Positions 13,922 through 40,000 of a DNA stretch of 40,000 bases are shown here, piece after piece. The position numbers and the translations under genes were made by a program. The notes under the pieces were generated by a model. It ran no database searches. It was given only the letters and a program-made list of their open reading frames with translations, and was not told the DNA's origin. Source of the DNA: Methanoregula sp. UBA471 (GTDB taxonomy: Archaea; Halobacteriota; Methanomicrobia; Methanomicrobiales; Methanospirillaceae); contig DADT01000031.1 of assembly GCA_002495065.1 (NCBI GenBank), positions 80,996-120,995 on the forward strand. The letters are read 5' to 3'. The first letter of the stretch is position 1, and each line of letters starts with the position of its first letter.

Positions 13922-14091
13922 ACTATCACTCCCTGGAACCTTATTTTGTTATTTTTGTAACTCCCCTGGGAATTATGAGAAGAAATGCGATGTCGATTAG
14001 TCGATTTTATCCTGCCGAATTCATAAATGCTGGCAAGGCAGCGATGCAAAACACCGGTGAACCTGGAAAGACTGAATTGTTATAAAAAAAC

Positions 14092-17805: not shown

Positions 17806-17901
17806 TTTCGCCTCTCAATTTTCTATTATTCAAGCTTGGTGAAACGCCAAACCTGGCACCTTAATCACCTCCCACTCCAATCTCCCTGCAAGGCAAATTC
17901 C

Positions 17902-24075: not shown

Positions 24076-24100
24076 GAAATGAAGCGAGTTATCGGAAAGA

Positions 24101-26992: not shown

Positions 26993-28166
26993 ATTTACCC
27001 TGACTCTGAAAGGAAAAGACTATGCTAAGTACGGCCTTCTGGGAAACCCTTTCCCATTCTCCGGCGTTCCGGATGAACATCCGAATGTCTATATCGGACA
27101 GGATGATGTTCTTGAGAAGATAAACTCTGTGTTATCGTCGACAGTTCTGTCATCACAATCGAATCATCTCATTGTAACCGGATCCTATGGTAATGGAAAA
27201 AGTCATACTCTGAAATTTATCAAATCACATATCAGAGACCAGTTTTCAGAAAAATCCGACACCAGGATTTGTGTAGGATATGTATCCCAACCCGGAGAGA
27301 CGTTTCTTGAGATTTATACCAAATTTATGTACGATTTGGGATATTCCTTTGTTAAGAATCTGTCTCAGACATATCTCGGTCATATTGCATTTCAACTATC
27401 AAAGGATGGACTGATTGAAGAAAAAATCCGAAAAGGGCAGGGTTGGAAAGCGATCGAAAAAGGGGATGTTCTTATTTCGGATATCGTTCCAAAAGCCATC
27501 CAGCGGTTGAATGACGGCATAAAATTCGTTGATTACACGAGGGCATTCATTGCATTATCGTATGAAGAAAATTCTATCTATTCCTGGGAGTGGCTCTGTG
27601 GGGAAGGTGTTGAATATAATAAACGACAGGAACTTTCTCTCGGAAAAAATATCAATGACATCAACTCAGTCCGAGCATTCGGTGCAATGAAATATGTGCT
27701 TAAAGAACTGGGTTTTTCTTCTCTCGTTTTGCTTATCGACGAATTTGAGTTTATTGAAACACTTCCACAATTAAAGAAACAAAAATTGCTCAATTCCCTG
27801 CGTCACATCATCGATCTCAATGGGGATAGGCTGTCAATTATTATTGCGTGTGCTCCAGAGGTCTGGCAAACAATTGTTGCTGAATACCATGCCTTTTCAG
27901 AGCGCATCGCAAAAGAGGCCAATCTGAAACCCATGGATCAGGAAAAGATCCGGTTGCTGTTGGTGTCATATCTGAACAATAAACGTACTAATCAGAGTGA
28001 TTCCCTGTTACCATTTACCGATGATTCAATTGAAAAAATATTTTTCCATTCACAGGGAAATACACGACGTATAATTTCCTTATGTAGTCAGGCCCTTGAT
28101 GCGTCCCTGGATTTCAATAAACCTCAAATCGATCAGGAGATTCTGGATTCGGTCATCGCCGGATAA
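26985..28166 (+). CDS. P-loop ATPase, ORC/Cdc6- or BrxC-like AAA
   Basis: N-terminal GLLGNPFPF, Walker A GSYGNGKSHT and Walker B VLLIDEFEF. The start is taken at ATG 26985; ATG 26970 and the track start 26937 are alternatives. Confidence 0.7.
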   Translation: MTEFTLTLKGKDYAKYGLLGNPFPFSGVPDEHPNVYIGQDDVLEKINSVLSSTVLSSQSNHLIVTGSYGNGKSHTLKFIKSHIRDQFSEKSDTRICVGYVSQPGETFLEIYTKFMYDLGYSFVKNLSQTYLGHIAFQLSKDGLIEEKIRKGQGWKAIEKGDVLISDIVPKAIQRLNDGIKFVDYTRAFIALSYEENSIYSWEWLCGEGVEYNKRQELSLGKNINDINSVRAFGAMKYVLKELGFSSLVLLIDEFEFIETLPQLKKQKLLNSLRHIIDLNGDRLSIIIACAPEVWQTIVAEYHAFSERIAKEANLKPMDQEKIRLLLVSYLNNKRTNQSDSLLPFTDDSIEKIFFHSQGNTRRIISLCSQALDASLDFNKPQIDQEILDSVIAG

Positions 28167-28243: not shown

Positions 28244-28645
28244 ATGCGAGCGAAATTATATAAAATTGTCACATTCGATGCCAGTCACCGGTTACTGTAT
28301 TATGTCGGAAAATGCAATCAGCTGCACGGGCATCACTGGAAAGTGGAAGTCTGGGTTGAGGGAAATGTTGATGAAAAGACTCAGATTGTCGTTGATTACA
28401 ACACAATAAAACAAGTCATTGAGCGGTTCGATCATATGGTAATTCTGAATAAGAAAGATCCTCTTGTAAGTTGTCTTGAAAAATATCAATCTGTGATTCA
28501 GGTAAATGGAGACCCTACGAGTGAATTGCTCGCATATCATATCAAAAATATTCTCGAAAATGATAGTGATTTCAAACGGACTGATGCGAAGGTAACGCGG
28601 ATAAAAGTATGGGAGTCACCGACCAGCTGTGCGGAGATTTCTTAA
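28244..28645 (+). CDS. queD: 6-carboxy-5,6,7,8-tetrahydropterin synthase QueD
   Basis: FDASHRL and CNQLHGHHWKVEV (catalytic Cys plus His-x-His zinc ligands), at 133 aa. Confidence 0.85.
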   Translation: MRAKLYKIVTFDASHRLLYYVGKCNQLHGHHWKVEVWVEGNVDEKTQIVVDYNTIKQVIERFDHMVILNKKDPLVSCLEKYQSVIQVNGDPTSELLAYHIKNILENDSDFKRTDAKVTRIKVWESPTSCAEIS

Positions 28646-28661: not shown

Positions 28662-29492
28662 TTAAGAGAGAAGATATTTTTTTAATGTAATTTTTTCAAA
28701 TTTTAAAGGAATATCAATTGAGATGTAATTGGTTTCAAATTTTCCTCGAGAAAGGATCAGATACTTTCCCTCAATTAATTTTTTAATCAATGCTTTTATC
28801 CTTTCTATCGATAAAGTCCCATATGAAAATCCTGCATCAATTTCAGAATACAAATTATTCTCTTTAATTGAGTCACTGATAGAAATTATTGACTCAATAA
28901 ACTGTCCGAATTCATCCATACTCAGTAATTGAAGAGCTTGGTCCTCAAATATCGGATCAAACATTATTTTATTTCTTGATGTCGTTGTGAAATTTAACCA
29001 ATTAATCCAAGATTTCAATCTCCCAGATGCAGTTTTATTTAGTCCTTCCTTCTTCGAAAAATCTTGAATGATCTCATTCAACTCGAATGTATTCGATCGG
29101 ATTTCTTCAATTACCTTGCGAAATATCATGCTGTGTTTGTAGAGATTTTTAAAAAAATAAAATGAGACAAATGAATCGTATTCGCCATTTGCGCAATGAT
29201 GGGCAATTTGTTTTCCTTGTTTTGTAAGCATATTTTTATCAAGAAACTCAAGTTTTTTTAATAATTGAATCTGTGATGAAAAGTGATCATTTTTTACTGG
29301 TGAGAAAGAATCTCCTTCGTGTTTCCGTTTCCTTTCATTATACTCAAACAAAATTCCTTCATCAAAGTTTGGAAATTTTTTTTCAAATCGTTCACATTCA
29401 GAAATAATTTCCAATATTTCACAACATGTACTCATAATTGTTGTCGAAATTTGGTGTTTTGTAATTTCATTACGAGCAGTATCTTTAGACAT
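28662..29492 (-). CDS. hypothetical protein, partner of the 983-aa ATPase
   Basis: 276-aa ORF whose ATG directly abuts the stop codon of the upstream 983-aa gene (TGAATG). Confidence 0.55.
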   Translation of the reverse strand: MSKDTARNEITKHQISTTIMSTCCEILEIISECERFEKKFPNFDEGILFEYNERKRKHEGDSFSPVKNDHFSSQIQLLKKLEFLDKNMLTKQGKQIAHHCANGEYDSFVSFYFFKNLYKHSMIFRKVIEEIRSNTFELNEIIQDFSKKEGLNKTASGRLKSWINWLNFTTTSRNKIMFDPIFEDQALQLLSMDEFGQFIESIISISDSIKENNLYSEIDAGFSYGTLSIERIKALIKKLIEGKYLILSRGKFETNYISIDIPLKFEKITLKKYLLS

Positions 29493-32444
29493 TCAAACAA
29501 CCTTATATGTGGCGACTAAAACCTTATTCTCCATTAAAAATTTTACAAAATCACTTGCTTTTTTATCGTCAATATTGAATTCTTTTTGAAGTAGTTCGAG
29601 AGTGTATTCTTTATTCGGTTTAAAAAGTGATTTGAATTTGGGTCCTAGTTGTCCAAATTCTGTATCGATATTAATTGAAAACACAGATGAAAAATTTCCC
29701 TTTCTATAATTTTTATTTGCCTCATCAATTTTTGCCTCCATCGTTTTGATAATTTTCCGCATTGATTCCAGTTGGTCATCTTTAAGGTATAATTCACACT
29801 TTTGAACGAGGATTTTTCCGTCACTATTTTTATTGGTTATTTCTCTTATGTGATTCTCGGCTTTGATATCCAAATCCGTGTAGAGACTTCGTAAATTCTT
29901 GAATTTTTGATCAACCTTTTCAATATCTGTGCTTTCTTGGATAATTTTCCAATCATCTGAAAGTGTCTTATTGCTTAAATCCAACATCTCATTTTTAATT
30001 GCCCGTTCAAGTTCATCGATATTGAAAGATTTGATTTCACCTTCAAGGATTTTTGCTCTTGTTGAGAATTGGTTATATATTGAAATTGCTTCATCAAAAC
30101 TCGGGCGAATTTTTTCTGCATATTCCAACATATTTACCTGTTCAAAAATTTTTTCAGTATCTGTTGACAGGGAGTTTAATTCTGATTCTAATCGAGAATT
30201 TTTAAATTGAATTTTCTCTAAAACTTTGATGGCGTTTTTTATTGTCGAAGTCCTCTCATGATAAATATGGGATATCTCTTTGAGTTGATTGATATATTCT
30301 GTCGATGTGAAAAGAACACTTTTCATTCGGTGTTCATGATAGTATAACTCAACAAAATTGACGATCGAATTTTCTGTAGGTTTAAAAGTGTTAATACTAT
30401 TTTTTATTAACTCTAACGAACGGATAAATTGAGTAGTTTTTTGCTCAAATTTTTCTGATAATAGTTCACCGATTTGATCACGACATTCTTTCAATGATTC
30501 TGTAATCCCTTTTCTCTCTTTTTCAATCTCTTTGATCAAGGAGGACTTTCTTTCATCAAATTGAATTAATTTATACCCATCCGTCATTCCAATTTTTTTC
30601 AGTAATTTTACTGCTGAATCGATTGGCTTAACTTCAGAATTAAAATAAAAAACCTCTTGAGACAATTTTTCAGGAATAAAATAATCCGCAGAGAGAATCT
30701 GGTTATACCAACTCGGTGCGGTTATTGTTGCTCCGTCGAAAAATTCACTAAGAGATAAAAATTCAACATTCGCTTTTTTCATATCGTTTTTTGATACATA
30801 ATAAATATCCATTATAAAATTTTCAAATTCGTCGTCAGATCGTAATTTTGATCCGAATAATGATGAGACATAATGTTGTTTTCGATGTTTCTCAAAAAAA
30901 TGTATGATTTTATCATTCATTTCCATTACTTGATTGAATATTTGATCCTTGGCTGTAGTAATTTCTCCAGAAGATATCAACATTGGATTATAAAGTGCAA
31001 ATCTTAGAGCCATTTCTGGGGTATCTGGAAGTAATATGAAAGCATCATCATCAGATTGTTTTTGATTTTTCTTTTCAGAATTGGAGATAAAGAGCGTGAA
31101 AATATCCGAACTAATTTTTGGATCTCCAACCATTTTTATAGAGATGGGAATCCTTGCTTTCTCATTAGGAATGGTGAAAAATATTTTTTTCAATCTTGAA
31201 TCAGCAACATATCTGTCCGAACAATCATGTAACATCTCACCAATATTTTTGAGGGCAAAATGAAGTTGTGATTCTTTATCTTCCAAAAATCCTTCTGCGA
31301 TAAGACCTTCAGCCTTATCCCGACCCATTTTTGATTTAAATTCTACATCATCTAATATAGCAGAAAATTTTTTTGTTTTTCCCTCAGGTGGCTTCAGTAG
31401 AGTAACTTTGGTTGATCCCGCCAACCATTCAGCAATTCTCTTTTTATCGATGGATCCACCACCGATTTGATTAACAGAATAAAGGATATCGTGGCAATTT
31501 TTAATGAGAATCCTCCAAGAAAACAATCCTTTTTCATCAACAGATTTTTTTGTAAGAAACATAATTCCGTCTTGTGTGAAAGGATAATTCTCATCAACAT
31601 CATTTGAGATTCTTGCATTTTTCAAGCGGAATTGAACGAATTCTATTGCTTCTTTCTCGGTGAATGGTCTCAGAGGAATTACTCTTTCCAATCGTGTTTT
31701 TAAGGCATTATTTATTCCACCGATGTGTTGGAAACTCGCCGCAGTCATATACAAAAATAATGCAACAGGGAATTTTTGATTAGTTTTCCCTTCTTGAATG
31801 TAACCAATCAAATCACGAAGATATTTTAAATCCCTCTCGATTTGAGGACGAGTCATGGCAGTCATACCCCACCTGTCCTCCACTTCATCAAGATGGATTA
31901 CTACGCAATCACACCCCCCAATTTTTATTAGAGCGTTGATATAACCAAACCAAAGACTCATCAATCGGGTAGCTTCACGAATATCATTTTCGCCCGATTT
32001 CTCGAATTTAATTCCCTTGAATGTTAGATCCAATGCTTCATTTATACAGGATTCGACTTCTGATTGATCTAGATCTCCTGTAGTTATCGCCAATTTATCG
32101 ATGATTAATTTTAAAATAAAGAATGGATCGTCAAATGAACCATACTGCATCTTCAATATGATATGTTTGGTTTTTGGATGGTGGATTGAACTTTCCATTA
32201 ATTTGTATGCAAGAGCTGTTTTTCCTGATGATGGTTCACCTTCAATGACTGCAGCAATCAGTTTGCCCCCTCTTCGAGCCATATTGATTACGTCATTGCA
32301 GTCGTGTAACTCCTTCGTCCGAAATTGTGCGTTAATTGTTGAAATTGCAGGCTCATAATCCCCTTGACTTTCAAAAGGGATGAATTTTAAGTTAATATTT
32401 TCAAAATTATCAATAATATCTGCGGTTTTCCGTCTTTGTGCCAT
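29493..32444 (-). CDS. large P-loop ATPase with long coiled-coil-rich C-terminal region
   Basis: Walker A GEPSSGKTAL and Walker B VVIHLDEVED in the first ~330 aa (ORC/BrxC-like AAA). The remaining ~650 aa are Lys/Glu/Ile-rich and look helical. Confidence 0.7.
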   Translation of the reverse strand: MAQRRKTADIIDNFENINLKFIPFESQGDYEPAISTINAQFRTKELHDCNDVINMARRGGKLIAAVIEGEPSSGKTALAYKLMESSIHHPKTKHIILKMQYGSFDDPFFILKLIIDKLAITTGDLDQSEVESCINEALDLTFKGIKFEKSGENDIREATRLMSLWFGYINALIKIGGCDCVVIHLDEVEDRWGMTAMTRPQIERDLKYLRDLIGYIQEGKTNQKFPVALFLYMTAASFQHIGGINNALKTRLERVIPLRPFTEKEAIEFVQFRLKNARISNDVDENYPFTQDGIMFLTKKSVDEKGLFSWRILIKNCHDILYSVNQIGGGSIDKKRIAEWLAGSTKVTLLKPPEGKTKKFSAILDDVEFKSKMGRDKAEGLIAEGFLEDKESQLHFALKNIGEMLHDCSDRYVADSRLKKIFFTIPNEKARIPISIKMVGDPKISSDIFTLFISNSEKKNQKQSDDDAFILLPDTPEMALRFALYNPMLISSGEITTAKDQIFNQVMEMNDKIIHFFEKHRKQHYVSSLFGSKLRSDDEFENFIMDIYYVSKNDMKKANVEFLSLSEFFDGATITAPSWYNQILSADYFIPEKLSQEVFYFNSEVKPIDSAVKLLKKIGMTDGYKLIQFDERKSSLIKEIEKERKGITESLKECRDQIGELLSEKFEQKTTQFIRSLELIKNSINTFKPTENSIVNFVELYYHEHRMKSVLFTSTEYINQLKEISHIYHERTSTIKNAIKVLEKIQFKNSRLESELNSLSTDTEKIFEQVNMLEYAEKIRPSFDEAISIYNQFSTRAKILEGEIKSFNIDELERAIKNEMLDLSNKTLSDDWKIIQESTDIEKVDQKFKNLRSLYTDLDIKAENHIREITNKNSDGKILVQKCELYLKDDQLESMRKIIKTMEAKIDEANKNYRKGNFSSVFSINIDTEFGQLGPKFKSLFKPNKEYTLELLQKEFNIDDKKASDFVKFLMENKVLVATYKVV

Positions 32445-32513
32445 ATCCTCGCCTTAGGTCTACCATTGATAACCATTATTTATTAATCTAATGAGTTGAG
32501 TTTATCATCTTTC
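32445..32513. promoter_or_regulatory. short divergent promoter region between the 983-aa ATPase operon and the NurA-HerA operon
   Basis: AT-rich spacer of about 50-70 bp (contains TTATTTATTAAT) between divergent starts. Confidence 0.3.
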
Positions 32514-33899
32514 ATGGTAGATTCTATGTCTGTGAGCTCGTATCTACCGACAAATGCGTATGATACCACACGATTGGGAGTAATTATTCGAGACTCTGAA
32601 GTTTTATTCTCTGAAAGTCGAGTAGAATGTGAGAGAACGATACGAGGAATAGATAATACGTTATCTGCGAATGCATCTTTAATCGATCCCGATTCAAATC
32701 CTTTAGAAAAAAGTAGAACTATAAAATTTGTTGCAATTGATGGAACTCGAGATATTCTTGAAGGCCAGTCACATGCACGATTATTTGCAGGTGCCTACGC
32801 AGTTTGCGGTTCATTCGAAGAAAAGGTGGATATAACTGAAATTGAAAGAGGATGTGCATTCAGCATCGTTTCTTTACCCTATAAAATTCTGACTTCTGGA
32901 AACGATTATGAAACTGAAAATGCTGGGACAATTGCAAATCTTCTCATGCTGCTCTCGGAGATTTTTGTAGCCCTGGATTATTCTGAAAAAAACGTTGATA
33001 TGATCCTCCTTGATCGTCCATTATGCGGAACCCTTGCCCATACTCGAACTAAGATGGCTGATAACAGTATCCTAAAAGAAATGGGTGCACGGAATATCAC
33101 CTCTAAAATAAAAATCGATGATCTAATGCCGATTTTTGACACATTGTGTAAAAGACTTTTTATTGACTCTCATCCCGAACCCCTTAAAATTCAAGACCGC
33201 TATCTTTCGAGCGACGATCTTATGTATCTTTGTCGTATAGGGATGGAGAAATTATTTCAGACCTGCCGAGAAAGAAATATCGACCTGATCGGAATTACAA
33301 AAACCACAAATGATTGCTCCTTTTTGCGAATGTTAATCACTATCCACTCAATTGAAAATTTATCAACGAAGAAAATTCGAAAAATTTTCTCGCAGATTGA
33401 TGATTGCCGAATGCTCGACATTTGGATAGAGCCCTATAAAAAAATAGTTTGTACACGAGAATATGATACAGCCTTAATGACCATAATGGTTGATGAATCA
33501 AAAACTGTCAAAGATATCGGTGGGGGAGGTGTAGCCCCCCGAAAAACCATTGTTCGTTCGTACATGAGTTTTGGACTAAAGAATAAAGGAGGATATGTCT
33601 TTGCTGTTGAACGACTTGTTTTAGTTGATGAAAAACCGCCCGTTCTTGTCCTCCCCGATCACTCTGAAATATTCCTTTTTACGATAGAGGGAAATACAAA
33701 ACAAAATACCATTTTTCACATTCTCAAAGGCATGTGTACAGGAGCATTTCCTGAAGCACTTTACTATCCATTGCCTCTAGCGTTATCTCATCGTTTTGCA
33801 AAATCAAATTTCGATTATGTTCGACCTCGATTGAAAGCATCGAGTTATGTGTTTGGAAGAGAGTATGGTTATAACGATGTAAAAAGGGGATTTACATGA
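32514..33899 (+). CDS. NurA-domain nuclease-like protein
   Basis: KFVAIDGTRD (NurA catalytic Asp block), MILLDRPLCG and DLIGITKTTN are collinear with NurA motifs. ATG 32514 is preferred over TTG 32496. The stop overlaps the herA-like start (ATGA). Confidence 0.6.
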   Translation: MVDSMSVSSYLPTNAYDTTRLGVIIRDSEVLFSESRVECERTIRGIDNTLSANASLIDPDSNPLEKSRTIKFVAIDGTRDILEGQSHARLFAGAYAVCGSFEEKVDITEIERGCAFSIVSLPYKILTSGNDYETENAGTIANLLMLLSEIFVALDYSEKNVDMILLDRPLCGTLAHTRTKMADNSILKEMGARNITSKIKIDDLMPIFDTLCKRLFIDSHPEPLKIQDRYLSSDDLMYLCRIGMEKLFQTCRERNIDLIGITKTTNDCSFLRMLITIHSIENLSTKKIRKIFSQIDDCRMLDIWIEPYKKIVCTREYDTALMTIMVDESKTVKDIGGGGVAPRKTIVRSYMSFGLKNKGGYVFAVERLVLVDEKPPVLVLPDHSEIFLFTIEGNTKQNTIFHILKGMCTGAFPEALYYPLPLALSHRFAKSNFDYVRPRLKASSYVFGREYGYNDVKRGFT

Positions 33900-35716
33900 A
33901 TGAAGAGATTATTGAGCGATTTAACATAGAAGGTCGTGTAATCAAAATTTCTGGAAGTGGAGCTGCGACCGTTATCGAAATTTTTTTCCCGTATACTAAA
34001 GAAGCAATTACAAACATATCTGAAGGAGCTTTTTTAGCGTTGGAAAATGTCAGGTCAAAGGCTGATAAGAAAATATTCTCGCTAGTAAATATTGTGAGTT
34101 ACGACATCTTTCATTCGGGTTTAACTGACTTGGATCCAACGAAAGTCCCATTTCCCGCTACTGTTGTGGAAGTTGCCTCTCGTGCTTTCAAAGAACTTGT
34201 AGAAGGAAATCCTGAAAAAATTAGTCTGGCTGGAATCAAAGTCAGATGCATTCTATCGGGATATGAAATTGTTGATGACCAAAAAAGAACGGTTAATCCA
34301 AGCACAGAAAAGCCCCTTATTGGATCCGAGGTATTTCATCCAACTGCATTCATTTTAAATAAAATTTTTAACCGTGGTCTTAACATTGAAAGTGGGGCTA
34401 TTGAAATTGGAGATTATCACCATGGTTTGGATAAGATTAGAATCTTATTAGAACCGAACGATTTGATTCACCATCATATTGGTGTATTTGCATCTACAGG
34501 AGCTGGGAAAAGTTTCCTCATTTCAAATCTTTTAAAGGAAACATTATCCAAAGGAAAGAGGGCCATTATTTTTGATACTGTTCCTGAGTTTCCCGCGTTG
34601 TTATTCGATGTAATTTATGATTATGTTATGAATCGTAACAATGATTATAAAATTGCATTAATTTTCAGAGATAAGCAAGATATTCTCGCCGTAAGTAGTG
34701 GTGAAGAGTTACTAAAACGGATAAACATTCCAGAACCGTTGCGTGAAAAATATCATGACAAAATGTTGAAAGTTTTTGAACAATTACGATGGCAGCGAGA
34801 ACCTATCCCAAAAATAATGCTCCCCTTACTAACATCCTCTGAAATTATCAATATGGTCAATTATTCCATGTCGATAAAACGTCTCCCCCAGGCAGAAACC
34901 GTTGCTCAGACTATTGAATATTTTATTGAAGACCGATATCCCGACGCAATTTTTGCTGGAAATGTAAAGGATCTTAAAAATTTTGTCTCAGATTACAAAA
35001 ATATCAATGACATCTTGAATTTCATCCAAGGCGAACGGGATACAATAGGAGATGATAAGAATATTACCTACAAATTTTACGAATCGACATATCAATTACT
35101 TCTTCATAAATCCGACCAACGAAATCTCATCTTAACAGATTATATCAAAGAAATCAACAATCAACATCTCGACAAAAACCAGGTTATCGAGCCACGGGAT
35201 CTCGTTCGACCCCTGCTTGATGGAGATATGAAATTACATATTGTGATTAGTGACATCAGTGATGATACAAAACATTTGATGTCCAATGCAATTTCTAACG
35301 CTTTTAATTTACAAAAAGGTAAAGCCAATAATAGTCTGATGTTCGTCGTCGATGAAGCTCATAATTTTGCGTCTATCGATCCCTCACCCAGCTCGAAGGC
35401 CATAGAGAAATTGGCACGAGAAGGACGAAAATATAAACTCGGTCTGTGTCTTGCTTCTCAACGTTGTACATATATGAATACAAGTGTTATGGCCCAACTG
35501 AAAACATATTTTATCAGCAACCTCCGAATGAAAACCGATAGAGACCGGATAAGACAGATTTTTGATATTAATTCAGAGATTCTTGATAGTTCAGTCAATC
35601 TTGGTGGGAAAGATTGGTATCTTGTGTCGGAAAAGGCTACTGGATTGAAGAATACACCGATTAAAATTCGGGTGTTTGACGTGAATGAAAGAATAGAGTC
35701 GATAATTAATTCATGA
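33896..35716 (+). CDS. HerA/DUF87-family ATPase
   Basis: N-terminal barrel-like EGRVIKISG, Walker A HIGVFASTGAGKSF, Walker B LMFVVDEAHNF, and GRKYKLGLCLASQR. Confidence 0.8.
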   Translation: MNEEIIERFNIEGRVIKISGSGAATVIEIFFPYTKEAITNISEGAFLALENVRSKADKKIFSLVNIVSYDIFHSGLTDLDPTKVPFPATVVEVASRAFKELVEGNPEKISLAGIKVRCILSGYEIVDDQKRTVNPSTEKPLIGSEVFHPTAFILNKIFNRGLNIESGAIEIGDYHHGLDKIRILLEPNDLIHHHIGVFASTGAGKSFLISNLLKETLSKGKRAIIFDTVPEFPALLFDVIYDYVMNRNNDYKIALIFRDKQDILAVSSGEELLKRINIPEPLREKYHDKMLKVFEQLRWQREPIPKIMLPLLTSSEIINMVNYSMSIKRLPQAETVAQTIEYFIEDRYPDAIFAGNVKDLKNFVSDYKNINDILNFIQGERDTIGDDKNITYKFYESTYQLLLHKSDQRNLILTDYIKEINNQHLDKNQVIEPRDLVRPLLDGDMKLHIVISDISDDTKHLMSNAISNAFNLQKGKANNSLMFVVDEAHNFASIDPSPSSKAIEKLAREGRKYKLGLCLASQRCTYMNTSVMAQLKTYFISNLRMKTDRDRIRQIFDINSEILDSSVNLGGKDWYLVSEKATGLKNTPIKIRVFDVNERIESIINS

Positions 35717-35726
35717 TTTACTACAG

Positions 35727-38138
35727 GTGCGAGAAATGATTCAATTTGATCAATTTAATGCACTAGTTCTTCAGGTTTTAGGAAAAAATATAACGCCTAC
35801 CGAGGATGAAGAACACCCTGGACAATATGAAGCCGTTAGCTCACCAATTAATCATTCATTATTCATTGTTGCTGGACCAGGAAGTGGAAAAACAACAGTT
35901 CTTACTTTAAAAGTTTTAAAACTAATTTTCCTTGATCGAATAGACCCATCAACGATATTAGTAACAACATTTACAAAAAAGGCTGCAGCGGAGTTGAGAT
36001 CAAATATTCTTCGCTGGGGGATTCGTTTAAAAAATGCATTTCTTGATTCCCCTCTAGACAATGACGATAAGAATTGGATATCATCATTAGATTTTAATTT
36101 AATCATTACAGGAACCTTGGATAGTATATCTGAATTGATGTTACGAGAATATCGTGATCCTGCAAATCCATCTCCAACGGTAATTGAAAATTTTATTGCC
36201 AGTTCAATTATGCTCAAGACCGGTCTATTTGAACAGGGTCTAGTTAATAATGCAGATTTAAAAAATTACGTTCATTCATTGTCTGATAAACCTCAACGAC
36301 CTAATGCGGCAGAAATAACTAAAACACTACTTGAAATCAAAGATCGATTATATCATGATCGTGTTAGATTTGATGATTATTGTCATGATCCTTCTCATCC
36401 AGGTATTGAACCTACATGTAGAGCTATTCGAGCTTATTGTCAAGAATTAGATCGTTTAGAACTCTATGACTATTCAAAAATTGAAAACCAATTTTATGAA
36501 CATTTGTGCGAAGAAAGATTTGATGATTTACAAGAAAAATTACGTTTTGTTTTAGTCGATGAATATCAAGATACCAATTTATTGCAAGAAAAAATTTACT
36601 TCAAACTTGCAGAAATTGCAATATCCAATGATGGAAGTATTACAGTTGTTGGTGATGATGACCAATCTATTTACCATTTTAGAGGCGCCACGGTTGATTT
36701 ATTTACCAACTTTCCAGCAAGAATAGAAGAGCGCCTATCTATTACTCCAGAGACAATATATCTTTCAAAAAATTATCGTTCTACCTCATCAATTGTAAAC
36801 TACATCCGAGATTTTGTCACAATTGATCCCGATTATCAAGATATGCGGGTTGAAGAAAAACCTGAAATTGAATATGCAAGAACAAGTCCTCACATTGATT
36901 TTCCAATTTTAGGTTTTTTTAGAGATGATCTTCAAACCCTTGCAAGAGATCTTGCATTATTTATCGATGATGTCACACACGATAATGGATTTAATTTCAC
37001 AATTAATGGGATACAATATCGGATCGCTTTGAATGCAAATCACGGATCACGTAACGATATTTGTTTTCTCTGTCATTCGCCACAAGAACGAAATTCCGCT
37101 AATACTGAGAACCGGTTACCTGGAGAGATTAGAAACCAATTGCTAGGACTTGAAAACCCTATTCATGTCTTCAACCCAAGAGGTCAGCCCCTTGAAAATA
37201 TCCCCGTCGTTCAACAACTTTGTGGCTTGATAATGCTATGTATAGATCCGACGAATCTTGCCAATTCACGCGGCGTATTTCCACGTCTTCCTCAATATGT
37301 AAGAACAATGATTCAAACATGGATACAGGAAGCCCAATTGCTTATTGCGGCAAATACTACGAGAGTCGGAGGAATTACCTTAGAAGACTATGTCCATGCA
37401 TGGCAAACAAAAATTCCAATTGGTGAATCTGGGAGTACATGGCGAAGAGATTCATCAATATTAGAATTGACGTATCATCTTGTTGCTTGGATACCAGAGA
37501 TGCAAGATGATGTGGAAGGTTTAGTATACCTTGAAGTAATTTTAAGAACAATAAGTCAATCTTCTGTTTTCTCTAGATATAAAAGCAGAATAATTTATGA
37601 TCCAACTCGACCGACAACGGAAACTGCGTCCATAAAAGATGCTGTTTGGTCAATTTTCGTTCCTATTGCCTCGGGTGTAATTGAAATAAATGAGGATCTT
37701 CTTGAAACTATTCCTAACAATAGAATACCAATAATGTCTATCCATCAAGCAAAAGGACTTCAGTTTCCATTAGTAATAGTTGATGTTGGAGCGGATTTTA
37801 AAATAGACCACCATTCTCAGAGATTTAGGAGATACCCTCAATCCGAAGATAAAACTTGCAGAATTGAAGATTCTTTAAGAGCTCACAGTGAATTAGACAT
37901 TCCCTCAAGAATCGGAGAAGACCGCTGTTTTGATGATTTATTTAGACTATATTTTGTTGCATACAGTAGACCACAAGACATTCTAATACTCACTGGACTT
38001 AATAGCGTCCGAAATGGTTATTTAAGAATAAGTAATCGACAGAATCCTATCGGAGAAATCCCCCATATTGCAACTGGTTGGACCCGTGATGGACAATGGA
38101 TTTGGGCTAGGGGTCTCAATAATTTATATCATATTTAG
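35727..38138 (+). CDS. UvrD/Rep/PcrA-type SF1 helicase
   Basis: Motif I AGPGSGKTTVL, motif II VLVDEYQDTN, motif III VVGDDDQSIYHFRGA, motif IV LSKNYRS, and the late motif IHQAKGLQFPLVIV. The start is GTG 35727 or ATG 35736. Confidence 0.85.
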   Translation: MREMIQFDQFNALVLQVLGKNITPTEDEEHPGQYEAVSSPINHSLFIVAGPGSGKTTVLTLKVLKLIFLDRIDPSTILVTTFTKKAAAELRSNILRWGIRLKNAFLDSPLDNDDKNWISSLDFNLIITGTLDSISELMLREYRDPANPSPTVIENFIASSIMLKTGLFEQGLVNNADLKNYVHSLSDKPQRPNAAEITKTLLEIKDRLYHDRVRFDDYCHDPSHPGIEPTCRAIRAYCQELDRLELYDYSKIENQFYEHLCEERFDDLQEKLRFVLVDEYQDTNLLQEKIYFKLAEIAISNDGSITVVGDDDQSIYHFRGATVDLFTNFPARIEERLSITPETIYLSKNYRSTSSIVNYIRDFVTIDPDYQDMRVEEKPEIEYARTSPHIDFPILGFFRDDLQTLARDLALFIDDVTHDNGFNFTINGIQYRIALNANHGSRNDICFLCHSPQERNSANTENRLPGEIRNQLLGLENPIHVFNPRGQPLENIPVVQQLCGLIMLCIDPTNLANSRGVFPRLPQYVRTMIQTWIQEAQLLIAANTTRVGGITLEDYVHAWQTKIPIGESGSTWRRDSSILELTYHLVAWIPEMQDDVEGLVYLEVILRTISQSSVFSRYKSRIIYDPTRPTTETASIKDAVWSIFVPIASGVIEINEDLLETIPNNRIPIMSIHQAKGLQFPLVIVDVGADFKIDHHSQRFRRYPQSEDKTCRIEDSLRAHSELDIPSRIGEDRCFDDLFRLYFVAYSRPQDILILTGLNSVRNGYLRISNRQNPIGEIPHIATGWTRDGQWIWARGLNNLYHI

Positions 38139-38153
38139 CCGGAGAGATTGATT

Positions 38154-39365
38154 ATGACGTTAACAAATCGAGAAACACCATATATCATTCCTGAATACAG
38201 CCTAACTGGGGATTTATTGAGTTATCAAGTCTGTCCTCTTCAGTATAGATATAATAATCGTGGGGCTCTTCCACCTTCGAAACCAGTTCAACTTTGGTTT
38301 GGAGAGTTTATTCATGGGATAATGGAAGAGTCATACAATCAATGGCGGGAAAATACCAATTTTCATGATTTTCCATGGGACTGGCTAATGGATATTCGAC
38401 CTTTAGAACTCACAATTAATCGCAGATTAAATGCCCGTGGCCTTAGTACACCTCGAAACCTATTGTGTCCTTATAATGACCAAGAGAATAGAGTAATGGG
38501 TTGTAGAGATAATCATCATCCCCATAAATTAATCGGAAGTCAGCGAGCGGATGTTGCGATAAATATGTGGGGAAAACACCTATTTCCGCTAGTTGATACA
38601 GCTGAAGTTAAGCTAAAAGGTTGTAGGGAGTTACATAGTCCTGAAACTGAACGCCGCTCTGATTATTATGGTATCACGGGTATTGCGGATGTAATAAGTT
38701 CAATTTCATTACGAGAAGCAGATGCCGATAATAAAATAATGCAATATTTGTCATCTGATCCAACGGTCAGAAATATGATGAGTGTGTATGAAGATGACGA
38801 ATTTGAAATAATTATTGATTATAAGGGGATGAGACGACCTTCAATTTTTGATAGCCCTAACCACCCAAATCAAACTTGGATTTCCCATGAATGGCAAATT
38901 CTCACATATGCTTGGCTTCGATCACATCAACCAGAATCAAAAAAACCAATCGCTGGGATTCTTTTTTATTTCGATGAATTAGTTCCAGCTTTAAAAGAGA
39001 TTCAATTTTTAAAGAAGGAGATTAGGGAAACCCGGACCGATATTATCCCATCAGATCCGAGTGATATTGATCTTTTAGGACGAACGAATCCACGATATAT
39101 CCGTGAACATTTAAGCAATGATTTAAGAGAGAGAAGATCTATCCGTGTTATCCCCATAACTGATGAGAGGATTGAAACGGCCCTTATGGAATTTGATACT
39201 ATTGTCGCAGAAATTGAGAAATCTGTTGTCAATGAGATACATACCGGACAAATTAAACAATGTTGGACCGCAAATGATTCTAATCCAGAAAATACTTGCA
39301 CTGTGTGTGATTCACGATATTTTTGCCCAAGGCAAAACAATCATTTTAGGATGACCGTTCCCTGA
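38154..39365 (+). CDS. Cas4/RecB-like PD-(D/E)XK nuclease with 4-Cys (Fe-S type) cluster
   Basis: N-terminal Cys in YQVCPLQYRY, GIADVIS, IIIDYKG (D-x-K), QILTYAW (QxxxY), and C-terminal C-x2-C-x5-C (CTVCDSRYFC). ATG 38154 has GGAGAG 8 nt upstream; the track start is TTG 38148. Confidence 0.7.
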   Translation: MTLTNRETPYIIPEYSLTGDLLSYQVCPLQYRYNNRGALPPSKPVQLWFGEFIHGIMEESYNQWRENTNFHDFPWDWLMDIRPLELTINRRLNARGLSTPRNLLCPYNDQENRVMGCRDNHHPHKLIGSQRADVAINMWGKHLFPLVDTAEVKLKGCRELHSPETERRSDYYGITGIADVISSISLREADADNKIMQYLSSDPTVRNMMSVYEDDEFEIIIDYKGMRRPSIFDSPNHPNQTWISHEWQILTYAWLRSHQPESKKPIAGILFYFDELVPALKEIQFLKKEIRETRTDIIPSDPSDIDLLGRTNPRYIREHLSNDLRERRSIRVIPITDERIETALMEFDTIVAEIEKSVVNEIHTGQIKQCWTANDSNPENTCTVCDSRYFCPRQNNHFRMTVP

Positions 39366-39433: not shown

Positions 39434-40000
39434 ATGCGCTTCTTTATTCCCGAATGGGACGACCGGGTCGACCCCGGTTATGATTTTCTTACCGATACTC
39501 ATTCGGCGTCACACCAAGCCAATCCTCTGAAAAATGATCACTATATGTGGGATATTTTTGGAATCGATAAAGTTCCCTTCGACGGCGTTCTTGTATCAAT
39601 TGCAACAATTCAACAGAATAGTAAAAAATATCATGCGATTTTAGACAATGGAATTCACCAATTCCTTCGCTTACCGCAAGATTTTGAGATTATTGCAGAC
39701 TGCGGCGCTTTTTCATATATTAAAGAAAAAATTCCCCCATATAAGACAAAGGATGTATTGAAACTCTACGGAGATTTGGGATTTAATTACGGAGTTAGTG
39801 TCGATCACCTCACAGTTCCGATGTTCAAAGAGCAGAATCAAGCAAGGATAAGAATCACGTACGAAAATGGAGTTGAGGCCTTCAATGAATGGAAATTGCA
39901 TTATAAAGAAAATTTTCAATTAATCGTTGCAGTACAGGGAGCAGAAATCTCTGACTATATGACAATGTTCAACAATTATTATCGGAGAGGTATCCGTCAT
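39434..40000 (+). CDS. second TGT-superfamily / DpdA-like transglycosylase, 3'-truncated by the window end
   Basis: Hand translation from ATG 39434 gives 189 codons with no stop through base 40000: MRFFIPEWDDRVDPGYDFLTD...IIADCGAFSYIKEK...VSVDHL. The ADCGAF block corresponds to the TGT catalytic DSGGFQ block. It is absent from the ORF track because it has no stop inside the window. Confidence 0.5.
   Translation, partial: MRFFIPEWDDRVDPGYDFLTDTHSASHQANPLKNDHYMWDIFGIDKVPFDGVLVSIATIQQNSKKYHAILDNGIHQFLRLPQDFEIIADCGAFSYIKEKIPPYKTKDVLKLYGDLGFNYGVSVDHLTVPMFKEQNQARIRITYENGVEAFNEWKLHYKENFQLIVAVQGAEISDYMTMFNNYYRRGIRH

What the first reader, a model, noticed from the sequence alone, without database searches (positions are those of the whole stretch)
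32514..39365. Coupled NurA-HerA-UvrD-Cas4-like nuclease operon: candidate undescribed defence or restriction machine
Seen in sequence: four same-strand genes have junctions of ATGA overlap, ~10 nt and ~9-15 nt. They encode a NurA-like nuclease (AIDGT and LLDRPL blocks), a HerA/DUF87 ATPase (intact Walker A and B), a full-motif UvrD-type SF1 helicase, and a PD-(D/E)XK nuclease with a Cas4/AddB-style C...C-x2-C-x5-C cluster. Established knowledge: NurA-HerA is the archaeal end-resection pair, classically linked to mre11-rad50. HerA is also the ATPase scaffold of the SIR2-HerA and DUF4297-HerA anti-phage systems. UvrD-like helicases appear in Gabija (GajB), and helicase plus Cas4-like nuclease resembles AddAB. 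I do not know of a described system that combines all four. Inference: no mre11/rad50 is in the window, and the operon sits in an AT-rich island between DNA hypermodification genes. This fits an ATP-driven double nuclease/translocase complex that degrades foreign or unmodified DNA better than it fits housekeeping repair.
Basis: partly seen in the sequence, partly recalled or inferred. Interest (0 to 1): 0.85.

Follow-up and report, generated by a model that had tools for sequence, protein, structure and literature searches.

The report
Archaeal deazaguanine DNA-marking island nucleases
The four genes are real, but they are two separate helicase/nuclease pairs that sit inside a larger, conserved methanogen gene island built around an enzyme (DpdA) that writes 7-deazaguanine marks into DNA, so they are most likely the DNA-degrading arm of an undescribed archaeal modification-and-restriction defence system.

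Summary
**Observation: confirmed.** The window encodes four same-strand genes with the stated junctions:
- a NurA-fold nuclease;
- a HerA ATPase;
- a UvrD-type SF1 helicase;
- a RecB/Cas4-type nuclease with a C…C-x2-C-x5-C cysteine cluster.

**Interpretation: partly supported.** The unit is not a fixed four-gene cassette.
- About 100 related loci show two separable pairs, NurA-HerA and UvrD-nuclease. Their relative position and strand vary.
- The next gene is a DpdA fused to a DpdC/YaaA-like DUF6884 domain. DpdA is the DNA-guanine transglycosylase that inserts 7-deazaguanine.
- Every locus of this NurA family that has enough flank carries dpdA.
- The UvrD-nuclease pair is much more widespread (about 1,900 relatives). 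It occurs alone, or in compact DUF6884–UvrD–nuclease–DpdA operons. In locus L068 it sits in a six-gene DUF6884–NurA–HerA–UvrD–nuclease–DpdA operon.
- No mre11/rad50 was seen in any locus whose genes were examined.
- No PADLOC defence model matches the NurA-like protein.

**Best reading (about 0.55):** these genes are the restriction arm of an archaeal Dpd-like 7-deazaguanine restriction-modification island.

**Prior art is partial.**
- A helicase plus Cas4-like nuclease next to tgt was noted in passing in 2017.
- HerA+TGT "BRC" systems were described in 2026.
- NurA-HerA linked to DpdA appears to be undescribed.

**Verdict:** new variant of a known kind. The function is inferred, not shown.

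The parts
32514..33899 (+). Divergent NurA-family nuclease, 461 aa from the ATG at 32514. The ORF opens at a TTG at 32496.
   Evidence: - The Pfam NurA match is full-length but below cut-off (17.7 bits against 21).
- Profile relatives P0011 and P0014 pass the cut-off.
- The AF2 model has pLDDT 87.3, and its top 11 Foldseek PDB hits are all NurA.
- D82, E155, D173, D273 and H432 are invariant in the family.
- The gene overlaps herA by ATGA.
- Public records call it a hypothetical protein.
33896..35716 (+). HerA/FtsK-superfamily hexameric translocase (DUF87), 606 aa.
   Evidence: - Pfam DUF87 scores 50.8 bits.
- The best PADLOC HerA match is the 'Type III coevolved' model, 116.6 bits.
- It falls far below the cut-offs of all NCBIfam HerA equivalogs.
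- Solved repair and antiphage HerA proteins match only at E = 1e-12 to 1e-6.
- Walker A and Walker B are present.
- It always directly follows the NurA-like gene.
35727..38138 (+). UvrD/Rep/PcrA-type SF1A helicase, 803 aa.
   Evidence: - Pfam UvrD-helicase scores 155.9 bits and UvrD_C scores 36.4 bits.
- The nearest solved structures are E. coli UvrD, PcrA, Rep and AddA.
- It sits directly upstream of the nuclease: in 56 of the 63 loci with more than 2.5 kb of upstream sequence, a UvrD gene ends within 200 nt of the nuclease start.
38148..39365 (+). RecB/Cas4/AddB-type PD-(D/E)XK nuclease with a predicted 4-Cys iron-sulfur cluster. It is 405 aa from the TTG, or 403 aa from the ATG at 38154.
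   Evidence: - Pfam PDDEXK_1 scores 37.8 bits.
- C29, C384, C387, C393, D181, D224-x-K226 and Q250-x3-Y254 are invariant across both size variants.
- The family has 1,939 relatives, mostly from methanogens.
39434..40000 (+). N-terminus of a DpdA (DNA-guanine 7-deazaguanine transglycosylase) fused to a C-terminal DUF6884 (YaaA/DpdC-like) domain. The gene is cut by the window end.
   Evidence: - The 188-aa fragment scores 137.9 bits against NCBIfam DpdA.
- The full 571-aa protein on the same contig (L018) scores 320 bits against a cut-off of 200.
- The L005 orthologue scores 61.5 bits against DUF6884 and gives weak DpdC matches.
- The zinc-site motif CxCxxC…H and the CxxxK motif are present.
29493..32444 (-). 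Conserved 983-aa P-loop ATPase with a long helical C-terminal region, transcribed divergently from the NurA-like gene.
   Evidence: - It is present in every locus of this NurA family that has upstream sequence.
- The Walker A (GEPSSGKT) and Walker B (HLDE) residues G74, K75, T76, D186 and E187 are invariant.
- An orthologue gives a weak ATPase_2 match.
- It has no Pfam, PADLOC or PDB sequence match.
- It diverges faster than NurA and HerA: 43-47% identity against 63-71%.
28662..29492 (-). Conserved 276-aa protein of unknown function, abutting the 983-aa ATPase gene.
   Evidence: - It is always paired with the 983-aa gene.
- It has no family or PDB match.
25122..28166 (+). Three-gene block: a short archaeal-type TGT paralogue (343 aa, no PUA domain; 25122-26153), a 280-aa unknown protein (26150-26992) and a BrxC/D-like AAA+ ATPase (26937-28166).
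   Evidence: - The TGT paralogue scores 136.8 bits against Pfam TGT and 198 bits against NCBIfam TgtA, below that model's cut-off of 350. Its CxCxxC…H motif is kept.
- The ATPase scores 52.3 bits against BrxC_BrxD and 39.3 bits against PADLOC BrxD.
- The block is conserved in the islands and moves as a unit.
- It also lies next to UvrD-nuclease pairs that have no NurA-HerA, in L043 and L079.
28244..28645 (+). QueD (6-carboxytetrahydropterin synthase), a preQ0 pathway enzyme.
   Evidence: - Pfam PTPS scores 99.9 bits.
- It is present in L004, L010 and L012-L015, and is replaced by a Vut_1 transporter in L005.
23152..24793 (-). QueC (preQ0 synthase, 24101-24793) and an overlapping weak nitrilase-superfamily ORF (23152-24162).
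   Evidence: - QueC scores 236 bits and CN_hydrolase scores 18.1 bits, which is below cut-off.
- Both are conserved in L004 and L008.

Best explanation
The four genes are the motor and nuclease (effector) arm of an archaeal, Dpd-like 7-deazaguanine restriction-modification island.

**Modification side**
- *Shown by homology:* QueC and QueD, together with host enzymes, supply preQ0. The DpdA-DUF6884 fusion just downstream has the sequence features of an enzyme that exchanges guanine for preQ0 in DNA.
- *Inferred:* the DpdC/YaaA-like DUF6884 domain may convert or read the mark. The second TGT paralogue, with the BrxC/D-like ATPase, may assist insertion or sense the mark, as DpdB does in bacteria.

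**Restriction side (inferred)**
- DNA that lacks the mark is attacked by two ATP-driven helicase/nuclease machines.
- The UvrD helicase and the Fe-S RecB/Cas4-type nuclease act like a split AddAB/AdnAB enzyme. They unwind and cut from an end or a nick.
- The NurA dimer mounted on the HerA hexamer then threads and degrades the duplex processively, as the archaeal resection complex does.
- The fast-evolving 983-aa ATPase and its 276-aa partner are candidate sensor or regulator components.

**Evolution (shown)**
- The UvrD-nuclease pair is the older and commoner partner of DpdA.
- NurA-HerA is an added second effector.
For: **Identity of the parts**
- Established.

**Link to DpdA**
- The gene after the nuclease is DpdA-DUF6884 (320 bits against a cut-off of 200).
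- Every locus of this NurA family with enough flank has dpdA within 10 kb: the window, L001/2, L004, L005, L008, L009, L010 and L012-15.
- An independent lineage has a tight six-gene operon, DUF6884-NurA-HerA-UvrD-nuclease-DpdA (L068). A second locus (L039) has the four genes followed by DpdA and QueC.
- 31 of 80 metagenome loci of the nuclease family carry DpdA or DUF6884 nearby, typically as DUF6884-UvrD-nuclease-DpdA. Methanothrix soehngenii has this four-gene operon.

**Signs of a defence system**
- Modules are exchanged independently. UvrD and the nuclease are 22-28% identical where NurA and HerA are 63-71% identical, and DpdA is 37% identical in L001.
- The island is AT-rich.
- Neighbours include a Type IV restriction enzyme, type I RM genes and Fic in L020, and a NERD helicase and an ImmA-like protein in L018.
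- No mre11/rad50 was seen in any locus whose genes were examined.

**Selection**
- All four genes are under strong purifying selection.

**Precedent**
- The bacterial dpd cluster modifies DNA with preQ0/ADG through DpdA/B/C and restricts unmodified DNA through DpdD-K (PMC10164549, PMC5699537).
- A helicase plus Cas4-like nuclease next to tgt has been proposed to be a restriction module (PMC5567051).
Against: - There is no experimental evidence for modification or restriction in any of these archaea.
- About 60% of UvrD-nuclease pairs (49 of 80) have no DpdA within reach and no universal neighbour. The pair therefore has an autonomous role, which could be repair.
- The minimal DUF6884-UvrD-nuclease-DpdA operon in Methanothrix lies among housekeeping genes.
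- No component that discriminates modified from unmodified DNA has been identified.
- NurA-HerA needs a DNA end, and nothing here is shown to make the first cut.
- UvrD is the only ATPase in the minimal operon, so it might serve DpdA (as DpdB does) rather than restriction.
- L010 has the island without a UvrD-nuclease pair, but its NurA and DpdA genes are frameshifted.
Confidence: 0.55

Rival explanations
1. The helicase/nuclease genes support modification rather than restriction. In this reading UvrD, the only ATPase in the minimal operon, supplies the ATP-dependent DNA opening that DpdA needs, in place of the missing ParB-like DpdB. The nucleases and NurA-HerA process or repair intermediates such as abasic sites, nicks and ends.
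For: - Bacterial DpdA needs the ATPase DpdB for transglycosylation (PMC10164549). No DpdB homologue was found in any island protein scanned.
- The minimal operon DUF6884-UvrD-nuclease-DpdA has tight, often overlapping junctions.
- Phage 9g also carries a helicase and a Cas4-like nuclease next to its dG+ genes (PMC5567051).
Against: - A transglycosylase exchanges bases without breaking the backbone, so two processive degradative nucleases are hard to justify.
- The window island already has a BrxC/D-like ATPase in an operon with a TGT paralogue, which could play the DpdB role.
- The UvrD-nuclease pair is swapped for distant versions within otherwise conserved islands. This is typical of effectors under conflict.
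- The phage pair is not detectably homologous to the window's pair.
Confidence: 0.17
2. This is a modification-dependent (Type IV-like) defence. The TGT-family proteins or DUF6884 recognise or excise 7-deazaguanine in the DNA of hypermodified archaeal viruses, and the two helicase/nuclease machines then destroy that DNA.
For: - 7-Deazaguanine-modified phage DNA is a known defence target (bioRxiv 10.1101/2025.10.29.685425).
- There are two TGT-family paralogues in the island, and a Type IV restriction enzyme lies next door.
- DUF6884/YaaA-like proteins are predicted base-flipping DNA binders (PMC11701544).
Against: - The islands carry preQ0 supply genes (QueC, QueD, or a Vut_1 precursor transporter). 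These make sense for writing the mark, not for attacking it.
- DpdA scores well above NCBI's curated equivalog cut-off and keeps the zinc-site motif.
Confidence: 0.1
3. This is housekeeping or stress DNA repair. NurA-HerA and a UvrD-RecB-like nuclease perform double-strand-break end resection, and the link to DpdA is a secondary association.
For: - NurA-HerA is the classical archaeal resection machine (fold match to the Sulfolobus, Pyrococcus, Thermococcus and Deinococcus complexes).
- UvrD plus a RecB-type nuclease resembles AddAB.
- Many UvrD-nuclease pairs stand alone, and the Methanothrix operon sits among housekeeping genes.
Against: - No mre11/rad50 was seen in any locus whose genes were examined.
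- The NurA-like family occurs in 3 of 185,579 species genomes, so it cannot be a core function.
- HerA scores 60-70 bits against NCBIfam repair-HerA cut-offs of 800-970.
- The island is AT-rich and sits in a defence-island context.
- The islands are mosaics of exchanged modules.
Confidence: 0.08
4. This is cargo of a virus or integrative element that hypermodifies its own genome. HerA would act as a packaging or translocation ATPase, and the nucleases would degrade host DNA.
For: - A distant NurA-like/HerA pair lies in an integrase-bearing element (L016).
- One IMG/VR contig carries two DUF6884-UvrD-nuclease modules.
- L004 is flanked by a DDE transposase.
Against: - The NurA family is absent from 2.9 million viral contigs, and neither protein matches any of 50,697 phage records.
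- The nuclease family is found on a single viral-collection contig.
- The window has no integrase among the ORFs scanned, no tRNA gene and no terminal repeats around the island.
- No capsid or terminase genes appear in any locus.
- The islands sit in MAG chromosomes of 2.5-2.6 Mb.
Confidence: 0.05

Closest known systems
Bacterial Dpd system (dpdA-K; Salmonella Montevideo)
   Same: - It is built around a DpdA DNA-guanine transglycosylase.
- It is linked to preQ0 synthesis genes.
- It has a DUF328/YaaA-related (DpdC-like) domain.
- It includes helicases and a nuclease, forms a mobile island, and follows restriction-modification logic (PMC10164549, PMC5699537).
   Different: - No DpdB and no DpdD-K homologues were found.
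- DpdC is replaced by a distantly related DUF6884 domain fused to DpdA.
- The effectors are UvrD plus a Cas4-like nuclease, and NurA-HerA, instead of SNF2/DEAD helicases plus a PLD nuclease.
- There is an extra TGT paralogue and a BrxC/D-like ATPase.
- The host is archaeal.
Archaeal/bacterial NurA-HerA end-resection complex (2YGK, 3TAI, 4D2I, 7F6D, 9X1L-P)
   Same: - NurA fold.
- A HerA/DUF87 ATPase with Walker A and B motifs.
- nurA is translationally coupled to herA.
   Different: - The sequences are very divergent: Pfam NurA is below cut-off, and HerA scores 60-70 bits against equivalog cut-offs of 800-970.
- It is never found with mre11/rad50.
- It is rare and carried on an island.
- It is always found with dpdA.
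HerA-scaffolded defence systems (SIR2-HerA, DUF4297-HerA; type III CRISPR-associated NurA-HerA)
   Same: - A HerA ATPase is paired with an effector nuclease in a defence context.
- The best PADLOC HerA match is the type III CRISPR 'coevolved' HerA model (116.6 bits; PMC6546367).
   Different: - The effector is NurA, not SIR2 or DUF4297.
- No cas genes were found among the island proteins scanned.
- It is coupled to a DNA modification enzyme.
BRC (BREX-related capture) system: PglZ + DUF6079 + STAND + DUF4007 + HerA/FtsK ± GNAT/TGT (PMC12839542)
   Same: It combines a HerA/FtsK translocase, a TGT-family enzyme and BrxC/D-type ATPases. It is found in archaea and bacteria and is proposed to mark self DNA with 7-deazaguanine.
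   Different: - No PglZ, DUF6079, DUF4007 or GNAT was detected.
- The paper and its supplements mention neither NurA nor a UvrD/Cas4-like pair.
AddAB / AdnAB / RecBCD helicase-nucleases, and the helicase + Cas4-like nuclease pairs next to tgt noted by Tsai et al. 2017 (PMC5567051)
   Same: - An SF1A UvrD-like motor works with a RecB-family nuclease that carries an AddB/Cas4-type 4-Cys cluster.
- Adjacency to TGT/DpdA genes has been noted, with a suggestion that the pair restricts unmodified DNA.
   Different: - The helicase and the nuclease are separate polypeptides.
- The NCBIfam AddA score is 112 bits against a cut-off of 708.
- The 2017 note was 'data not shown', was not characterised and did not include NurA-HerA.
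- The phage 9g pair is not detectably homologous to the window's pair.
Gabija (GajA-GajB)
   Same: The UvrD helicase gives generic matches to GajB models (up to 118 bits).
   Different: There is no GajA (OLD-family ATPase/TOPRIM nuclease) in the island. The matches reflect the shared UvrD core only.

Membership tests
NurA (PF09376) | RNase H-like NurA fold | tested here: met
   The AF2 model has pLDDT 87.3 and pTM 0.86. Its top 11 Foldseek PDB hits are all NurA; the best is 2ygk_A, E = 1.4e-11, with TM 0.73 normalised on the target.
NurA (PF09376) | Score above Pfam's gathering threshold | tested here: not met
   The score is 17.7 bits against a cut-off of 21, although the match covers positions 4-253 of the 254-position profile. 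Profile-linked relatives P0011 (21.5 bits) and P0014 (22.6 bits) pass.
NurA (PF09376) | Conserved acidic/His catalytic positions | tested here: inconclusive
   D82, E155, D173, D273 and H432 are invariant in the close family, and E155 is at least 90% conserved in the 50-sequence alignment. Their equivalence to the NurA active site rests on memory of the published structures; no residue-level superposition was made.
NurA-HerA pair | nurA adjacent to a herA/DUF87 gene | tested here: met
   The window genes overlap by ATGA. The same adjacency is seen in all close loci and in the distant relatives L016, L017, L068 and L039.
Archaeal mre11-rad50-herA-nurA repair operon | Linkage to mre11 and rad50 | tested here: not met
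   No Mre11/Rad50-type gene was detected in the ORFs of the window that were scanned, or among the called genes of the loci fetched by look-up.
HerA (DUF87, PF01935) | Pfam cut-off and Walker A/B motifs | tested here: met
   The score is 50.8 bits against a cut-off of 23.2. The motifs GAGKS and VVDEAH are present.
HerA repair or antiphage equivalogs (NCBIfam NF040819, NF042943/4) | Score above the curated equivalog cut-off | tested here: not met
   Scores are 50-62 bits against cut-offs of 800-970.
SIR2-HerA / DUF4297-HerA defence | Adjacent SIR2 or DUF4297 effector | tested here: not met
   The adjacent effector is NurA-like. None of the island proteins scanned matches SIR2 or DUF4297.
UvrD/Rep SF1A helicase (PF00580/PF13361) | N- and C-terminal UvrD domains with helicase motifs | tested here: met
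   Scores are 155.9 and 36.4 bits. Motifs I-VI are seen in the translation.
Gabija | GajA OLD-family nuclease next to GajB | tested here: not met
   None of the island proteins scanned against PADLOC matches GajA.
Cas4 (TIGR00372) | Curated cut-off and CRISPR-cas linkage | tested here: not met
   The score is 17 bits against a cut-off of 65. No repeat array was found in 19.5-40 kb, and no Cas proteins were found among the island ORFs.
RecB/AddB/Cas4-type PD-(D/E)XK nuclease with Fe-S cluster | D…(D/E)xK, QxxxY and C…CxxCxxxxxC motifs | tested here: met
   All are invariant in both family variants. PDDEXK_1 scores 37.8 bits against a cut-off of 22. Cluster binding itself cannot be tested here.
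AddAB/AdnAB | Helicase and nuclease fused in each subunit; equivalog score | tested here: not met
   The polypeptides are separate. AddA scores 112 bits against a cut-off of 708.
Dpd system | DpdA transglycosylase | tested here: met
   The full-length protein on the window's own contig scores 320 bits against a cut-off of 200. The window fragment scores 137.9 bits.
Dpd system | DpdB (ParB-like ATPase) | tested here: not met
   None of the island proteins scanned matches DpdB or ParB.
Dpd system | DpdC (DUF328) | tested here: inconclusive
   In the orthologue scanned (L005), the C-terminal DUF6884 domain scores 61.5 bits. It matches DpdC and YaaA only weakly (25 and 17.7 bits).
Dpd system | DpdD-K restriction genes | tested here: not met
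   No PADLOC DpdD-K match appears in the results for any of the 14 island proteins scanned. The UvrD result lists only the best 25 of 52 matches.
Dpd system | 7-Deazaguanine present in genomic DNA; restriction of unmodified DNA | not testable with these tools
   This needs LC-MS/MS of DNA and transformation or virus assays.
BRC (BREX-related capture) system | PglZ, DUF6079, DUF4007 and a STAND NTPase together with HerA | tested here: not met
   HerA, TGT and a BrxC/D-like ATPase are present. No PglZ, DUF6079 or DUF4007 match was found.

The most novel reading that the evidence does not exclude
Methanogens mark their own chromosomal DNA with 7-deazaguanine, which would be the first genomic Dpd-type modification in Archaea. 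They enforce the mark with a layered degradation machine in which the classical repair complex NurA-HerA has been co-opted as an immune effector alongside a split AddAB-like UvrD/Cas4-type nuclease. In the boldest version, the 7-deazaguanine marks act on the translocating machines like Chi-type 'stop' signals rather than as blocks to site-specific cleavage, and UvrD doubles as the ATPase that DpdA needs in place of DpdB. The motor would then be shared between modification and restriction, as in Type I restriction-modification enzymes.
Probability: 0.2. Interest if true: 0.85.

Novelty: new variant of a known kind. Interest (0 to 1): 0.62.

Why it matters
**What it would add**
- It would extend 7-deazaguanine DNA restriction-modification from bacteria and phages to archaeal chromosomes, specifically methanogens.
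- It would give a concrete role to a widespread but unstudied archaeal UvrD + Cas4-like nuclease pair.
- It would show that the textbook double-strand-break resection machine NurA-HerA can be recruited as an immune effector tied to a DNA mark.

**Why it is testable**
- The nested series offers natural minimal systems for reconstitution: a pair alone, then a 4-gene operon, then a 6-gene operon, then a roughly 10-gene island.
- The series allows tests of how a modification-reading step is coupled to processive DNA destruction.

**A practical consequence**
- Such islands could be a barrier to the genetic manipulation of methanogens.

Tried and rejected
**Searches that gave nothing**
- AF2 on the 9-sequence alignment gave an unusable model (pLDDT 47.5). 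A 50-sequence alignment fixed this.
- A profile search of the NurA family against PDB sequences found nothing; only the fold comparison worked.
- Profile searches of the 983-aa, 276-aa and 280-aa proteins against PDB sequences, and Pfam, PADLOC and NCBIfam scans of them, gave no usable lead. Their roles remain unknown.
- Two relevant papers are not held in the library: Thiaville et al. 2016 PNAS, and the paper tried as PMC3763556, which I recall as Iyer et al. 2013 NAR. A prior description there cannot be excluded.
- Literature searches for NurA/HerA/UvrD together with DpdA or 7-deazaguanine found no description of this combination.

**Explanations considered and rejected**
- *Fixed four-gene cassette.* Rejected because of the gene-order variation.
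- *Virus or mobile-element origin.* Rejected: the NurA family has no viral-contig hit, the window has no tRNA gene and no terminal repeats, and there are no phage tblastn hits. One IMG/VR contig does carry the UvrD-nuclease module.
- *Gabija, Cas4 proper, AddAB, SIR2-HerA or BRC membership.* Rejected; see the membership tests.
- *A universal conserved neighbour that explains UvrD-nuclease pairs lacking DpdA.* None was found. The frequent neighbours (a CARF-like HTH protein, ARPP-1 and a metallophosphatase) are probably synteny within one lineage.

Full report
**1. The observation**

The window has four + strand ORFs at 32496-33899, 33896-35716, 35727-38138 and 38148-39365.
- Pfam gives DUF87/HerA at 50.8 bits, UvrD-helicase at 155.9 bits plus UvrD_C, and PDDEXK_1 at 37.8 bits. 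NurA scores only 17.7 bits, below its cut-off of 21.
- The Walker and helicase motifs, AIDGT/LLDRPL and the cysteine pattern are all visible in the translations.

I tested the NurA call directly.
- A profile of the family linked it to proteins of about 600 aa, some of which pass Pfam's NurA threshold.
- A model built on a 50-sequence alignment reached pLDDT 87.3.
- Its 11 best Foldseek matches among solved structures are all NurA: Sulfolobus 2YGK (E = 1.4e-11), Thermococcus and Deinococcus HerA-NurA complexes, and Pyrococcus 3TAI.

The nuclease keeps D181, D224-x-K226, Q250-x3-Y254 and C29…C384-x2-C387-x5-C393 in both of its sequence variants. That is the RecB/AddB/Cas4 signature.

All four genes are under strong purifying selection: dN/dS is 0.04-0.12 against the L005 orthologues. 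The island from about 21 kb onward has 30-41% GC, against about 50% for most of the upstream part.

**2. What surrounds the four genes**

Downstream
- The next gene (39434 onward, cut by the window end) is DpdA, the DNA-guanine transglycosylase of 7-deazaguanine systems (137.9 bits on 188 aa).
- On the window's own contig, recovered as L018, it is a 571-aa DpdA that scores 320 bits against NCBI's cut-off of 200.
- The close orthologue in L005 shows that the C-terminal part is a DUF6884 domain, related to YaaA and DpdC.

Upstream
- A 983-aa P-loop ATPase and a 276-aa protein, both of unknown family, are transcribed divergently from the NurA-like gene.
- Further upstream lie QueD, a three-gene block (a short archaeal-type TGT paralogue, a 280-aa unknown protein and a BrxC/D-like ATPase), QueC and a weak nitrilase-like ORF.
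- At the edge of the island sits a PLD-helicase Type IV restriction enzyme (706 bits).

**3. Comparative evidence**

The NurA-like family is very rare.
- It has 8 clusters in 5.8 billion proteins.
- It has one full-length representative at 50% identity among 1.84 billion.
- It occurs in 3 of 185,579 species genomes: two Methanoregulaceae MAGs and one Methanobacteriota MAG.
- It is absent from viral contigs and phage genomes.

Mapping the island proteins onto all close loci shows a conserved set:
- the TGT paralogue, the 280-aa protein and the BrxC/D-like ATPase;
- the 276-aa and 983-aa proteins, divergent from NurA-HerA;
- UvrD and the nuclease;
- the DpdA-DUF6884 fusion;
- QueC, QueD or a Vut_1 transporter, which vary between loci.

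The order is not fixed.
- In L004 and L012-15, dpdA lies between HerA and UvrD.
- In L001/2, the UvrD-nuclease pair is about 5 kb from HerA, beyond dpdA and an inverted TGT block.
- In L009 and L011, the UvrD-nuclease pair is on the opposite strand.
- In L004, L008 and L009, UvrD and the nuclease are only 27-28% and 22-23% identical to the window's, while NurA and HerA remain 63-71% identical.

**4. The wider family of the nuclease**

The nuclease family has 1,939 relatives, in size classes of about 313 and about 402 aa. The named ones come from Methanoregula, Methanothrix, Methanofollis, Methanocalculus and Hadarchaeales.
- In Methanothrix soehngenii it sits in a compact DUF6884-UvrD-nuclease-DpdA operon.
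- In Methanofollis formosanus it sits next to a DpdA-DUF6884 fusion and near type I RM genes.

I annotated 80 metagenome loci with HMMs for each island component.
- UvrD is detected in 77 of 80 loci. In 56 of the 63 loci with more than 2.5 kb of upstream sequence, a UvrD gene ends within 200 nt of the nuclease start.
- DpdA or DUF6884 is present in 31 of 80 loci.
- NurA-HerA is present in 2 of 80 loci.
- One of those two, L068, is a tight six-gene operon: DUF6884-NurA(621 aa)-HerA-UvrD-nuclease-DpdA. Its DpdA scores 425.8 bits. Its NurA belongs to the distant 600-aa class, so this is an independent lineage with the same partnership.
- The other 49 of 80 pairs have no DpdA within reach. Among the 24 of them on contigs of at least 12 kb, there is no universal neighbour.

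The picture is a nested series: the pair alone; the pair plus DpdA and DUF6884; that plus NurA-HerA; and finally the roughly 10-gene Methanoregulaceae island seen in the window.

**5. Mechanism**

Shown by homology
- The island has a preQ0 supply (QueC, QueD).
- It has a DpdA that passes the curated equivalog cut-off and keeps its zinc-site motif.
- It has a NurA-fold nuclease coupled to a HerA ATPase.
- It has an SF1A helicase coupled to a RecB-type Fe-S nuclease.

Established elsewhere
- Bacterial DpdA/B/C insert preQ0 into DNA and convert it to ADG, and DpdD-K restrict unmodified DNA (PMC10164549, PMC5699537).
- From my own knowledge of the published NurA-HerA biochemistry: NurA2-HerA6 threads and degrades duplex DNA from ends.

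Inferred
- DNA lacking the mark is opened by the UvrD/nuclease pair and destroyed processively, with NurA-HerA as a second effector.
- The discriminating component is unknown. Candidates are DUF6884 (a predicted base-flipping DNA binder, PMC11701544), the second TGT paralogue, and the fast-evolving 983-aa/276-aa pair.
- I put this reading at about 0.55.

Rivals
- The helicase/nuclease genes support modification, with UvrD standing in for the missing DpdB (0.17).
- The system is a Type IV-like attack on 7-deazaguanine-modified viruses (0.10).
- The genes perform housekeeping repair (0.08).
- The genes are cargo of a virus or mobile element (0.05).

**6. Comparison with what is known**

- No PADLOC model matches the NurA-like protein. 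HerA and UvrD give only generic HerA and GajB matches.
- The island fails the defining features of the bacterial Dpd system other than DpdA: it has no DpdB and no DpdD-K.
- It also fails the defining features of Gabija, Cas4 proper, AddAB, SIR2/DUF4297-HerA and the BRC system (no PglZ, DUF6079 or DUF4007).
- Partial prior art exists.
  - Tsai et al. 2017 noted, without showing data, that a helicase and a Cas4-like nuclease often neighbour tgt, including in Methanococcus aeolicus, and suggested a restriction role (PMC5567051).
  - A 2026 study described HerA/FtsK + TGT "BRC" systems without NurA or UvrD (PMC12839542).
  - NurA-HerA pairs co-evolving with type III CRISPR are also known (PMC6546367).
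- I found no description of NurA-HerA linked to DpdA, nor of the archaeal DUF6884-UvrD-nuclease-DpdA operon as a system.
- Two key papers (Thiaville et al. 2016 and Iyer et al. 2013) are not in the held library.

**7. Verdict**

The domain calls are right, and so is "defence rather than core repair". The unit is drawn wrongly, and the decisive link to DpdA was treated as incidental context.
- This is a new variant of a known kind: a Dpd-type restriction-modification system with a new, layered effector set in Archaea.
- Interest is 0.62. The system is unusual and testable, but its function is inferred from context only, and parts of the association have been noted before.

Noticed in passing
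window 17836-20973 (+) and 17215-17805 (+): A 1045-aa PLD + ResIII helicase + DUF3427 protein matches PADLOC's Type IV methyl-directed restriction enzyme model at 706 bits. It sits right at the 5' edge of the AT-rich island. Just upstream of it is an RNase III + dsRBD gene, which is unusual in an apparently archaeal context.
   Followed up: partly
window 23152-24162 (-), overlapping QueC at 24101-24793: A 336-aa ORF has a weak nitrilase-superfamily (CN_hydrolase) match of 18 bits, below cut-off. It is conserved next to QueC in L004 and L008. It might act on the nitrile group of preQ0, which would change which 7-deazaguanine is written.
   Followed up: no
L041 4422-12934; L104 and L105 (IMG/VR UViG_3300006094_000039): Both sequence variants of the UvrD + nuclease pair (about 750+315 aa and about 800+402 aa) occur in tandem in front of one DpdA-DUF6884 gene in L041. 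They also occur about 18 kb apart on one contig of the viral collection, each after a DUF6884 gene. This recalls the two-subunit AddAB/AdnAB design.
   Followed up: partly
L010 (OY970061.1) 9965-14992; L008 3049-4099 and 6979-9968: In these MAG chromosomes, NurA and DpdA (L010) and the TGT paralogue and the 983-aa ATPase (L008) are split by frameshifts. L010 has no UvrD-nuclease pair within 8-10 kb. The cause is either sequencing error or a decaying island.
   Followed up: no
L018/L019 13125-18061 (continuation of the window's own contig): Beyond DpdA lie an HTH_3 + Peptidase_M78 (ImmA/IrrE-like) protein, a DUF3368 (PIN-like) protein, an Exo_endo_phos nuclease/phosphatase and a NERD + UvrD_C helicase. 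The defence-island character therefore continues past the window end.
   Followed up: no
L005 5276-6028 (-): A Vut_1 family gene (queuosine-precursor transporter family) occupies the place that QueD holds in the window. This suggests that preQ0 can be either salvaged or synthesised for the island.
   Followed up: no
L016 126-12184: A distant NurA-like (610 aa) + HerA pair lies in a contig with a tyrosine integrase and many small ORFs. No DpdA or UvrD is visible before the contig ends. The wider NurA-like/HerA clade may also travel on integrative elements.
   Followed up: partly
window 10484-15003: Upstream of the island lie an AAA_14 + DUF4143 ATPase (10484-11764, -), a NYN + OST-HTH/LOTUS protein (12401-13240, +) and a protein with a GIY-YIG motif (14092-15003, -). 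These may be further conflict-related genes.
   Followed up: no
window 27645-27662 and 34997-35014: An exact 18-nt direct repeat, AAAAATATCAATGACATC, lies inside the BrxC/D-like ATPase gene and inside herA. An 83% copy is at 32403-32420. This is probably chance in AT-rich DNA.
   Followed up: no
window 29493-32444 (-) and 28662-29492 (-): The 983-aa ATPase and its 276-aa partner are always divergent from NurA-HerA in this island type. They evolve faster than NurA and HerA (43-47% identity against 63-71%). They match no family in Pfam, PADLOC or NCBIfam and no PDB sequence.
   Followed up: partly
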